Below are positions 3 to 2,032 of a DNA stretch of 24,000 bases, piece after piece (within the stretch, counting starts at the first letter, position 1; each line of letters starts with the position of its first letter). A program made the position numbers and the translations under genes. The notes beneath the pieces are model-generated. The model did not search any database. It worked only from the letters and a program-made list of their open reading frames with translations, and was not told the origin of the DNA. Source of the stretch: Chlamydia trachomatis (GTDB lineage: Bacteria > Chlamydiota > Chlamydiia > Chlamydiales > 2-12-FULL-49-11); NCBI GenBank assembly GCA_945870925.1, contig CAMBTZ010000001.1:6448-30447 (forward strand), read 5' to 3'.

Positions 3-554
3 GGCGCTACCCCTAAAAAACAGCAAATTGCTGAAATTATCGGACTCCTCTTCCCTTCACTACTAATCGGCTTTGTTTTGATATTGCTAAATAAAGTCTA
101 CGTCTTTGGAAGCACCGCTTTGCCAGCCCCCCAAGCCTCACTTCTTGCCGTGATCGGATCAGGTGTTATTCAGCATCAACTACCTACAACACTTGTCCTT
201 CTCGGAGTTGTCCTCGGTTTCATCCTCATCCTCCTAAGAACAAGAATCCTCCCCTTCGCAATCGGCCTCTACCTTCCCCTCGAAATCAGTACCCCCCTCA
301 TGCTCGGTGGCCTAGTCAGATACCTAGTAAAAAGGTTCCACAAACCCGAATCCGAACAAGCCGGCGTCCTTATCGGCTCAGGCCTAGTCGCAGGAGACGC
401 TTGCATCGGAGTCATCATCGCCCTCCTCACCGTCCTCGGCATCATCTCCCCAGACGCACCCCCCCTCCTCGGCCCCTCCTCCAGCATCGCCCTCTTCCTC
501 CTCCTCACCCTCCTCTTCGGCTGGCTCTCCCTCCGCCCAAAAGAAAAAACCTAA
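3..554 (+). CDS. OPT-family oligopeptide transporter, C-terminal part; the 5' end lies upstream of the window
   Basis: The frame is open from base 3 (GATPKKQQIAEIIGLLFPSLLIGF...), so the listed 78..554 ORF is only the tail. The sequence is hydrophobic and multi-TM, with ...GSTALPAPQA..., ...LPFAIGLYLPLE... and ...GGLVRY... patterns I associate with OPT-superfamily C-termini. Stop TAA at 552-554. Confidence 0.65.
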   Translation, partial: GATPKKQQIAEIIGLLFPSLLIGFVLILLNKVYVFGSTALPAPQASLLAVIGSGVIQHQLPTTLVLLGVVLGFILILLRTRILPFAIGLYLPLEISTPLMLGGLVRYLVKRFHKPESEQAGVLIGSGLVAGDACIGVIIALLTVLGIISPDAPPLLGPSSSIALFLLLTLLFGWLSLRPKEKT

Positions 555-2032
555 CTTTGACTTGAAAAATCCTTAACCACATTATTTAGATGTTGCATTA
601 AGTTTGATAAAGGAAGATTCCCACATTGACCCCCTCCAAGCCCCGCTTCACAGGGAGTCAGAAGATTGTTCGGACCATATTGACTTAATGCAGGATAATT
701 TTGAACTAGATATATTCCTAAAATCATCACATCATTAAAAGCACCCACATATTTAGAGATGGCGTTCTGACCAATAACCGTTACTGAATCAATAGACAAA
801 AAAGCTGGAATTAATTGCGCCATTATTAAAATTATATCATTCACTCCTTGCGAAGCATCTATACTTAAAGCCTTATCATTAAGATTATAATTAGTTACAA
901 ATTTAATATTAGATAGATCTGTTATTAAATTTTGAACATTTGCTTTTGCTGTGTCAGAATCAATACAGAGCATTGTATTAGGTTGCTCAAAAACTATTAA
1001 ATTATTTAGATAATCAAGAATAATATTAACAACAAGCGCATGATCTAATTCTGCAAAAGCAAATAGAATAGTAGGGCTTAGGTTCTGAATCAAATTTAAC
1101 CACCATATCGCATTTTTAATTGCATTATTGATTATGCTATATTGACTTGTGCCTTTTTCTGTTGAACCACATATTTTCCCCGACGCAAATCCTGCATAAT
1201 TCTTATCCATTGTTTGTAACTGCGCAATTGCATTATCAAGCACGTCATTAAAATCAGATATTATAGGAACACAATTATTAACTGGGCAGGAACATCCATA
1301 ACTATTAAGACCCGCAGCACAATATGTTTCATTACAATAAGCGTAATAATCCACAGGACATGGAAGATATGGATTCTTATCTTTATCTATTAAATTTTCA
1401 TACCAAGGAAATATAGGGGAAGGTAACGGAGATGTTAGAAGCCTATAGGCAAACTCTGGAGTATAATCATTTTTCATGTTTGGGTAGTTAAATAAAGTAC
1501 ACTCTGTTGGACTTTGAAAGGTTAATAAAGCAGTATTAAACAAAACACTCTGATCTGAAGAATCCACTTCATATGAAAGCGTAAGATCAAATCCGCTCGC
1601 ACCATTTATTGTTGCTCCAACCTCCCATGCAAGCTTAAATCCGTTTTTATCTGCACAGTTAGTCGTTAATATCGGTTCACATATATTAGAAGAGGGAAAT
1701 ACACATGATGTAGATGTATCGTTATATATTTCGAATTGAGCAATTTGATTCCCTAAAACATCTATTAAGCTTAATGAGAGTGGGTTAGATTTTGAAATAT
1801 CTTGAAAAGCTCCTGTTGCAGTTACTGTAGGATTAACAATATAATTAAGATTTGCACTATTACAAAATGTTGAAAGCCCGGAACATCCCGCTGACCAACA
1901 CTAAACCGGATTGTTATTTGTGGAATTACAACCACCCAAACAAGGACAGCCGCTATTACCATCGTATGTGGTTATATTATCAATCTGAAGAACATAATTT
2001 GTATTATTAAATATCGTAAAGCCTACAGCCAT
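551..2032 (-). pseudogene. Cys/Asn-rich orphan protein, 493 codons, interrupted by a single in-frame TAG; candidate secreted effector or toxin, or a recent pseudogene
   Basis: ATG at 2032..2030 opens a frame (MAVGFTIFNNTNYVLQIDNITTYDGNSGCPCLGGCNSTNNNPV) that hits TAG at 1903..1901. It continues in the same frame (CWSAGCSGLSTFCNS...LTLSYEV) straight into the listed 551..1567 ORF, whose M is an internal GTG. No other stop occurs across about 450 codons of roughly 30% GC DNA. I recognised no signal peptide and no known family. Confidence 0.6.

What the first reader, a model, noticed from the sequence alone, without database searches (positions are those of the whole stretch)
551..2032. Low-GC orphan: 493-codon Cys/Asn-rich ORF interrupted by one in-frame TAG
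The region from 551 to about 2160 is markedly more AT-rich than its neighbours (one 60-nt line counted at 18 G+C). It encodes a protein with no family I can name. The N-terminal ~150 aa look beta-rich and carry many Cys (GCPCLGGC, CWSAGCSG, ...PCPVDYYAYCNETYCAAGLNSYGCSCPVNNC). The C-terminal ~300 aa look helix-rich and Asn/Ile-rich. There is no signal peptide. The ORF from ATG 2032 is intact except for TAG at 1903..1901 (codon 44). In DNA this AT-rich, a dead gene would quickly accumulate more stops. The options are therefore a very recent nonsense mutation, a sequencing error, TAG read-through, or expression of only the downstream part from a non-canonical start. Given its composition, orphan status and position beside a GNAT-like gene, it is a candidate horizontally acquired effector or toxin in an organism expected to secrete effectors.
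Basis: partly seen in the sequence, partly recalled or inferred. Interest (0 to 1): 0.62.

Follow-up and report, generated by a model that had tools for sequence, protein, structure and literature searches.

The report
Strain-specific orphan gene, freshly broken
An uncultured freshwater chlamydia carries a 493-codon gene with no detectable relative anywhere, sitting in a variable spot of the chromosome and cut short by one young stop codon; this is an ordinary way for accessory genes to come and go in these bacteria.

Summary
Minus strand 2032..551 is one 493-codon reading frame with strong coding signal throughout. It has a single in-frame TAG at 1903..1901, and no ATG, GTG or TTG for the next 111 codons.

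The protein is Asn-rich (11.7%), Cys-rich (4.0%, 20 Cys) and almost free of Arg (1 of 493). It has no Sec-type signal peptide.

It is a true orphan. I found no relative among 1.84 billion cluster representatives, in 5.8 billion protein clusters, in six-frame searches of 400 Chlamydiota genomes, in Pfam, NCBIfam, PHROGs, PADLOC or PDB, or in phage, plasmid, JGI or IMG/VR DNA.

In the nearest relative (same genus) the OPT transporter and the GNAT-like gene are about 120 nt apart. The orphan is therefore a lineage-specific indel of about 1.56 kb. The site is a gene-content hotspot across the genus.

TAG is an ordinary stop in this genome. RF1 is present, no CUA tRNA was found, and no other gene shows such a TAG. 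An independent assembler gives the same base.

Best reading: a dispensable accessory gene, probably for an exported disulfide-rich protein, caught just after a nonsense mutation. GC is only mildly low. The effector or toxin idea is untested. Interest is low to moderate.

The parts
551..2032 (-). Whole interrupted reading frame: 493 sense/stop codons plus the terminal TAG. Orphan protein rich in Asn and Cys and nearly free of Arg.
   Evidence: Translation. Frame-specific coding score and stop counts. No homolog.
1901..1903 (-). In-frame TAG (codon 44), read as a premature stop. The next base is T.
   Evidence: Identical in the ENA MEGAHIT contig and in an independent Logan contig of run ERR3719156. 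TAG is a normal stop in this genome.
1904..2032 (-). The 43 N-terminal codons, from ATG 2032. An in-frame TAA lies two codons upstream, and an AGG lies 6 nt before the ATG as a weak Shine-Dalgarno site.
   Evidence: Sequence. Frame score -4.0 against -4.6 and -5.9 for the other two sense frames. Called as a 43-aa ORF in both public assemblies.
551..1900 (-). The 449 codons downstream of the TAG, fully open. The first 111 of them lack any ATG, GTG or TTG.
1565..1567 (-). GTG, the first canonical start after the TAG. It begins the 338-aa product that gene callers report (P0001). No Shine-Dalgarno-like sequence lies upstream of it.
   Evidence: Sequence.
555..2112 (.). Lineage-specific segment of about 1.56 kb: the orphan gene plus about 80 nt of its 5' flank. 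G002 has about 60 nt of unrelated spacer here. No flanking direct or inverted repeats were found.
   Evidence: tblastx/blastn and tblastn synteny. Junction sequences. Repeat search.
2100..2128 (-). Promoter-like site for the orphan (ATGTCA-17-TATTAT, 9 of 12). Its -35 element overlaps the -35 TTGACA of the divergent GNAT-like promoter, which is conserved in G002.
   Evidence: Consensus scan (12 sites found against 8.4 expected, so weak evidence). Conservation of TATATTGAC...CATACTT seen.
3..554 (+). Left flank: 3' end of the OPT oligopeptide transporter gene. Its stop codon overlaps the orphan's stop codon by 2 nt, and the two genes converge.
   Evidence: Pfam OPT, 1.5e-22. 91% identical to G002.
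2162..2758 (+). Right flank: GNAT-like 198-aa gene, divergent from the orphan. G002 has it (70% identity) without the orphan.
   Evidence: Weak GNAT Pfam hits..

Best explanation
This is a strain- or species-specific accessory gene of an uncultured freshwater chlamydia. It lies in a gene-content hotspot just downstream of the OPT transporter gene. It has very recently been knocked out by a genuine nonsense mutation at codon 44.

Shown:
- It is one continuous 493-codon coding frame.
- It is absent from the same site in the nearest relative, and no homolog was found anywhere.
- TAG is decoded as stop in this genome.
- There is no usable start codon downstream of the TAG.

Inferred:
- Translation now ends after 43 residues, and the remaining 449 codons are a very young pseudogene, at most a few per cent neutral divergence old.
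- The intact protein was most likely an exported, disulfide-bonded host-interaction or surface protein. The reasons are: 20 Cys in paired clusters with only 2 His, an acidic and N/S/T-rich composition poor in charged residues, and the same odd composition as a set of very fast-evolving lineage-restricted genes in this genome.
- Export would not have used a Sec signal peptide. The type III system this genome encodes is a plausible route.
- Loss of such a gene is tolerated because it is dispensable; the relative lives without it.
For: Single frame with one TAG. Coding signal in all three segments, and 30-65 stops in the other frames.

TAG reproduced at 100% identity in the ENA contig (4,567 nt compared) and in the independently assembled Logan contig (2,747 nt compared).

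TAG is a normal stop: 167 of 809 long ORFs end in TAG. No tRNA-CUA among the tRNAs aragorn found (35 tRNA/tmRNA genes). prfA (RF1) scores 472 bits, above its cut-off. Only 6 sites in the genome have a stop followed by a start-less open frame, and only this one is a TAG.

Youth of the stop: 203 of 4,428 single-base changes give a stop. That means a 50% chance of a second stop after about 15 substitutions and 95% after about 64.

Indel and hotspot:
- G003: OPT, then p69.
- G002: OPT, then the GNAT-like gene, then p69.
- G000: OPT, then the orphan, then the GNAT-like gene.
- G001: DUF4116-repeat genes plus a duplicated OPT 3' fragment.
- G004: rearranged.

Orphan status.

Compositional class: it has low GC3, and homologs occur only in G002 at 35-41% identity, while neighbouring genes are 65-91% identical.

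Type III export gate (SctV/FHIPEP) present.

Singletons make up 25,886 of 37,380 gene families in the chlamydial pangenome (PMC8242063).
Against: The assemblies that agree may all derive from the same read set. A population polymorphism or, less likely, a consensus error therefore cannot be excluded.

There is no second lesion, either a frameshift or a further stop. An intact allele with a spurious TAG would look exactly the same.

The functional guess (exported disulfide-rich protein) rests on composition only. AF2 models are unusable (pLDDT 32 and 42). Profile comparison with the compositionally similar proteins gives no relation.

No mobile-element hallmarks explain how the segment arrived. 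Gain in G000 and clean loss in G002 cannot be told apart.
Confidence: 0.6

Rival explanations
1. The gene is intact in the organism, or in most cells of the population. On this reading the TAG is a minority allele picked up by the assemblers, or a consensus error.
For: The frame is otherwise perfect over 493 codons. The genome is a MAG of 153 contigs from a natural population. Reads could not be checked.
Against: Two different assemblers, MEGAHIT k141 and Logan, give the same base with no break in the contig. Substitution errors in an Illumina consensus are rare. No homopolymer or repeat lies at the site.
Confidence: 0.15
2. The TAG is real, but a product is still made from the downstream frame. 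It could start by re-initiation, from a non-canonical start, or from GTG 1567 (the 338-aa product that gene callers annotate). The helical C-terminal domain would then survive as a shortened protein.
For: The 449 downstream codons are fully open. Gene callers report the 338-aa ORF. The predicted helical domain (full-length residues about 255-493) lies wholly within it.
Against: No Shine-Dalgarno-like sequence precedes GTG 1567. The 111 start-less codons upstream of it carry the same coding signal, so they were part of the gene. A 338-aa start would cut through the Cys-rich N-terminal part. The open frame is equally well explained by the youth of the mutation.
Confidence: 0.1
3. The TAG is read through by design, by leaky termination or a suppressor. 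This would give a low level of full-length protein, for example to keep a harmful protein scarce.
For: There is a single stop in an otherwise intact frame. Nothing else supports it.
Against: No tRNA with anticodon CUA was found. RF1 is present. TAG is used as the terminator in 21% of long ORFs. There is no other case in the genome. The base after TAG is T, which from general knowledge of E. coli termination contexts is a strong context and not a leaky one. No downstream structure or conserved relatives exist to argue for a signal.
Confidence: 0.03
4. The segment is recently transferred foreign DNA encoding a toxin or effector. The stop would then be selected because the product is harmful in the new host.
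For: It is absent from the syntenic site in the closest relative. GC3 is at the 2.7th percentile. The site holds different cargo in each genome of the genus, including DUF4116-repeat and kinase-like genes typical of host-interaction repertoires.
Against: No donor or relative exists in any collection searched. Synonymous codon choice is typical of this genome. The same amino-acid bias and low GC3 are shared by about ten other genes on other contigs, whose only homologs are in G002, so the style looks native to the lineage. There are no integrase, tRNA or repeat boundaries. No toxin family matches.
Confidence: 0.1

Closest known systems
Singleton (ORFan) accessory genes of environmental Chlamydiae (pangenome 'cloud'; Koestlbacher et al. 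2021, PMC8242063)
   Same: Found in one genome only, with no annotation, in an environmental lineage that has a dynamic accessory genome. That study counted 25,886 singletons among 37,380 gene families.
   Different: Here the absence is shown at the exact syntenic site in a same-genus genome, and the gene is caught with a single fresh nonsense codon.
Plasticity zone of Chlamydiaceae (hypervariable region holding cytotoxin, MACPF, PLD genes; from general knowledge)
   Same: A fixed chromosomal position where closely related genomes carry different, often host-interaction, cargo, and where genes are frequently degraded to pseudogenes.
   Different: This is a different location (the OPT 3' end next to a pseudopilin-like operon), a different lineage and a much smaller scale (0 to about 4 kb). 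None of the classical plasticity-zone gene families is present.
Young nonsense pseudogenes in host-restricted bacteria
   Same: A single premature stop in an otherwise intact, dispensable gene. The bacterium is intracellular with a small genome (1.3 Mb recovered at 86% completeness).
   Different: There is no intact ortholog to compare with, so inactivation is inferred from the code and from the lack of a start codon. It is not inferred from a reference allele.
Cysteine-rich chlamydial envelope proteins (OmcA/OmcB, MOMP; disulfide cross-linked outer-membrane complex)
   Same: A Cys-rich protein in a chlamydia, plausibly disulfide-bonded outside the cytoplasm.
   Different: No Sec signal peptide, no Pfam match to the Chlam_OMP families and no sequence similarity.
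Amber (TAG) recoding: pyrrolysine or suppressor-tRNA read-through
   Same: An in-frame TAG in an otherwise open gene.
   Different: No tRNA-CUA, RF1 present, TAG widely used as a terminator, and a single case in the genome.

Membership tests
TAG-recoding systems (pyrrolysine / amber suppression) | A tRNA with anticodon CUA encoded in the genome | tested here: not met
   aragorn on the whole assembly found 34 tRNAs and 1 tmRNA, none with cta, tta or tca anticodons. The assembly is 86% complete, so absence is not absolute.
TAG-recoding systems (pyrrolysine / amber suppression) | TAG rare or absent as a terminator, RF1 lost or TAG recurrent inside conserved genes | tested here: not met
   167 of 809 long ORFs end in TAG. 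prfA scores 472 bits, over its cut-off. Only one TAG-interrupted start-less frame exists in the genome.
Chlamydial Inc (inclusion membrane) proteins | Bilobed hydrophobic domain of about 40-60 residues (two adjacent transmembrane helices) | tested here: not met
   Kyte-Doolittle 19-residue windows above 1.4 occur only at residues 320-340 and 396-421. They lie about 75 residues apart and both contain D, E or H. The maximum is 1.87.
Chlamydial cysteine-rich OMPs / Pmp autotransporters | Match to the Pfam Chlam_OMP or Chlam_PMP models, and a Sec signal peptide | tested here: not met
   No Pfam or NCBIfam family at E <= 0.1 for the 449-aa part. No hydrophobic N-terminus.
Type III secreted effector | N-terminal secretion signal recognised by the T3SS; secretion shown in a heterologous T3SS assay | not testable with these tools
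   Only the presence of an SctV/FHIPEP export gate in the genome was shown. No predictor or assay was available.
Horizontally acquired island / mobile element cargo | Boundaries with direct or inverted repeats, an integrase or transposase, or a tRNA target; atypical codon usage | tested here: not met
   No flanking repeats. No integrase or transposase ORF and no tRNA nearby. Synonymous codon usage at the 80th percentile of genome genes; GC3 low, at the 2.7th percentile.
Lineage-specific indel (accessory gene) | Flanking genes conserved and adjacent in a close relative, with the segment missing | tested here: met
   In G002, the OPT stop and the GNAT-like start are about 120 nt apart, and the flanks are 91% and 70% identical at protein level. 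G003 has OPT followed directly by p69.
N/S/T/C-rich Arg-poor protein class of this genome (C56 trio, C97, C9, C48, C79, C23...) | Detectable sequence or profile similarity to a member | tested here: not met
   phmmer --max and blastp give no significant hit. hhalign probability is 0.45% against the C9/C48/C79 N-terminal repeat profile and 0.3% against the C56/C97 profile. Only amino-acid composition and low GC3 are shared.

The most novel reading that the evidence does not exclude
The orphan is the sole known member of a new fold family of exported, disulfide-rich host-interaction proteins. It would belong, at the structural level, to a rapidly diversifying repertoire of N/S/T/C-rich, Arg-poor proteins that is private to this freshwater chlamydial lineage. 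The TAG would then mark on/off turnover within that repertoire under host pressure, not random decay.
Probability: 0.12. Interest if true: 0.55.

Novelty: new member of a known kind. Interest (0 to 1): 0.25.

Why it matters
The case is well resolved. The empty site is seen in a same-genus genome, and the stop is datable as very recent. It illustrates how accessory genes are gained and lost in environmental chlamydiae, and it points to a small hotspot downstream of the OPT gene where each genome of the genus carries different cargo.

It also brings to light about ten similarly composed, fast-evolving genes of unknown function. These may be this lineage's host-interaction repertoire.

For annotation, the public 338-aa gene call is probably a gene-caller default (the first start after the stop). 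The locus is better labelled as an interrupted 493-codon gene. None of this overturns current understanding, because singleton genes and young pseudogenes are common in this phylum.

Tried and rejected
1. Homology searches, all empty except the query itself:
   - phmmer against 1.84 billion representatives.
   - k-mer/HMMER search of 5.8 billion clusters.
   - Six-frame search of the own genome, 40 relatives, 4 same-genus genomes at E <= 10, and 400 Chlamydiota genomes. The last gave one chance-level hit, E 0.0025 per genome, with three stops inside it.
   - Pfam, NCBIfam, PHROGs, PADLOC and PDB sequences. The eL40 hit at E 0.065 was dismissed.
   - Phage and plasmid tblastn.
   - JGI metagenome and IMG/VR pattern scans.
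   - DNA pattern across the TAG in genome contigs.
   - blastn and tblastx against the own genome.
2. Structure: AF2 single-sequence models of the 449-aa part (pLDDT 32) and of the C-terminal 239 aa (pLDDT 42) are too poor for a fold search, so none was run.
3. The N-terminus (FTIFNNTNYVLQI) looked like the 'I-x-F-x-NNT' repeat starts of C9_737, C48_387 and C79_272, and like thaumatin-type first strands. hhalign gives 0.45% probability and Pfam gives nothing, so this was rejected.
4. A relation of the helical C-terminal domain to the C56/C97 paralog family was rejected (hhalign 0.3%).
5. Ciliate-code relic (TAG = Gln after transfer from a ciliate host): rejected on reasoning. There is only one TAG and no in-frame TAA among 21 Gln-type positions, the gene itself ends in TAG, and there is no eukaryotic homolog.
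7. Literature search for the run and MAG identifiers found nothing.
8. Rfam over the whole window: no match.

Full report
**What is there.**
The window is contig C1:6448-30447 of a 1.32-Mb, 153-contig assembly that is 86% complete. The window carries chlamydial hallmark genes: DUF2709, a TLC ATP/ADP translocase, and an OPT transporter. The closest public relatives are 'Chlamydiae bacterium' MAGs from freshwater lakes and reservoirs.

On the minus strand, 2032..551 reads as 43 codons, TAG (1903..1901), 449 codons, TAG. An in-frame TAA lies two codons before the ATG, and an AGG lies 6 nt upstream of it. After the internal TAG, the first ATG/GTG/TTG is GTG 1567, so 111 codons are open without a start.

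This frame has one internal stop. The other five frames have 30-65 stops each. By my arithmetic from those counts (8.5% stops per codon), 111 open codons have a chance of about 5e-5 and 43 open codons about 0.02. A codon-frequency score built from 619 long ORFs of the genome prefers this frame in each of the three segments. In detail: this is one gene with one stop in it.

**Composition.**
- The ORF is 33.5% GC against a genome mean of 37.1 +/- 2.4%. That is the 6th percentile of equal-length windows.
- GC3 is 0.213, the 2.7th percentile. GC2 is unremarkable. Synonymous codon choice is typical of the genome, at the 80th percentile.
- The protein has N 11.7%, C 4.0% (20 Cys, mostly in close pairs or clusters), one Arg, two His, and 15 Lys against 40 Asp+Glu.
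- There is no N-terminal hydrophobic segment. The only two Kyte-Doolittle peaks are internal, weak and far apart.

**Orphan status.**
Every search returned only the gene itself. The searches are itemised in the tried-and-rejected field; they cover protein and six-frame searches of public genomes and metagenomes, family and structure libraries, phage and plasmid records, and the own genome. AF2 without an alignment gave pLDDT 32 (449 aa) and 42 (C-terminal 239 aa). The only usable hint is that the last ~240 residues are predicted helical and the first ~250 are not. I did not run fold searches on such models.

**Genomic context.**
| Genome | Order at the OPT 3' end |
|---|---|
| G002 (nearest same-genus genome) | OPT, ~120 nt, GNAT-like gene, p69, two pseudopilin-like genes, histidine kinase |
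| G000 (this window) | OPT, orphan (opposite strand), GNAT-like gene, p69 |
| G003 | OPT directly followed by p69 |
| G001 | Two DUF4116-repeat genes and a duplicated 113-aa OPT 3' fragment; a further 4-kb insert lies beyond the pseudopilin-like genes |
| G004 | Rearranged; includes a kinase-like 776-aa gene |

Neighbouring proteins in G002 are 65-91% identical to those of the window. The GNAT promoter-like motif TATATTGAC-N-CATACTT is shared between G000 and G002.

The window therefore has an extra ~1.56 kb, about 555-2112, holding the orphan and ~80 nt of its 5' flank. No trace of this segment remains in G002's spacer, and no direct or inverted repeats bound it. The OPT 3' end is thus a small gene-content hotspot. 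Whether G000 gained the orphan or G002 lost it cannot be decided. The GNAT-like gene is not tied to it.

**Is the TAG a stop?**
Yes, by every test available:
- TAG ends 167 of 809 long ORFs.
- aragorn finds no CUA-anticodon tRNA.
- RF1 is present.
- Only six sites in the genome show a stop followed by at least 40 start-less open codons before a long frame. Four are TGA, one is TAA, and only this one is TAG.

**Is the TAG real?**
The same base is present in the ENA MEGAHIT contig (100% identity over 4,567 nt) and in a Logan contig assembled independently from run ERR3719156 (100% over 2,747 nt). Both also carry the separate 43-aa ORF.

**Age of the stop.**
203 of 4,428 possible single-base changes in the frame create a stop. 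A neutrally drifting copy would have a 50% chance of a second stop after ~15 substitutions (1% divergence) and 95% after ~64 (4.3%). The lesion is therefore far younger than the G000-G002 split; their shared genes are only ~70-83% identical in DNA.

**What the protein might be.**
A scan of all ORFs shows that the odd composition is not unique. About ten other Pfam-less proteins without signal peptides are N/S/T/C-rich with less than 1.5% Arg and low GC3 (0.19-0.29). They include a tandem trio on C56, plus C97, C9 (four ~114-aa repeats), C48, C79, C23, C129 and C147.

Two of these proteins were tested. They have homologs only in G002, at 35-41% identity, so they evolve far faster than their genomic background.

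The orphan shares their style but shows no detectable similarity to them. An even number of clustered Cys with almost no His argues for disulfides and against metal sites, and hence for an extracytoplasmic location. The genome encodes a type III export gate, which could export a protein that lacks a Sec signal. This functional reading is inference from composition only.

**Verdict.**
This is an ordinary evolutionary event seen at high resolution: a lineage-specific accessory ORFan in a variable locus, just inactivated by a nonsense mutation.
- Read-through or recoding is not supported.
- Foreign origin is possible but has no positive evidence beyond the indel and low GC3.
- The effector or toxin idea remains untested.

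Singletons dominate the chlamydial pangenome (25,886 of 37,380 families; PMC8242063), so the orphan status by itself is not surprising.

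Noticed in passing
window 1-2760, compared with L014 (G002), L027 (G001), L028 (G003), L029 (G004): The junction between the OPT transporter 3' end and the p69/pseudopilin-like operon holds different cargo in every genome of the genus. 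G003 has nothing there. G002 has the GNAT-like gene. G000 has the orphan plus the GNAT-like gene. G001 has two DUF4116-repeat genes plus a duplicated 113-aa OPT 3' fragment (L027 8320-8658). G004 is rearranged, with a Pkinase-like 776-aa gene.
   Followed up: partly
G000 contigs C56:3217-6740, C97:35-1183, C9:692-2905, C48:1752-2915, C79:2953-3771, C23:9290-13444, C129, C147: A class of about ten N/S/T/C-rich, Arg-poor, low-GC3, Pfam-less proteins without signal peptides. It includes a tandem trio of paralogs on C56 and a protein on C9 with four ~114-aa repeats. Two were tested, and their only homologs are in G002 at 35-41% identity, so they evolve very fast.
   Followed up: partly
G000 C45:7925, C46:8679, C90:2323, C106:4075, C142:2501: Five other places where a stop (4 TGA, 1 TAA) is followed by at least 40 start-less open codons leading into a long frame. 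They could be further interrupted genes or long start-less leaders.
   Followed up: no
window 4404-4478 and 6498-6562: A ~65-nt repeat (98% identical between copies, also matching itself in reverse) at two gene ends. An earlier agent of this scan already followed it up as a small hairpin insertion element.
   Followed up: no
window 2100-2128: The best promoter-like sites for the orphan (minus strand) and for the GNAT-like gene (plus strand, TTGACA-17-CATACT) have overlapping -35 hexamers around 2122-2128. The GNAT-side motif is conserved in G002.
   Followed up: partly
window 551-554: The stop codons of the convergent OPT gene (TAA, 552-554) and of the orphan (TAG, 553-551) overlap. No terminator-like hairpin lies between or near them.
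   Followed up: no
L027 1281-4962 (G001): G001 carries a second insert of about 4 kb between the pseudopilin-like p298 gene and the histidine kinase. It encodes an 805-aa DUF4116-containing protein and a 367-aa protein with Ala/Pro/Ser-rich repeats.
   Followed up: no
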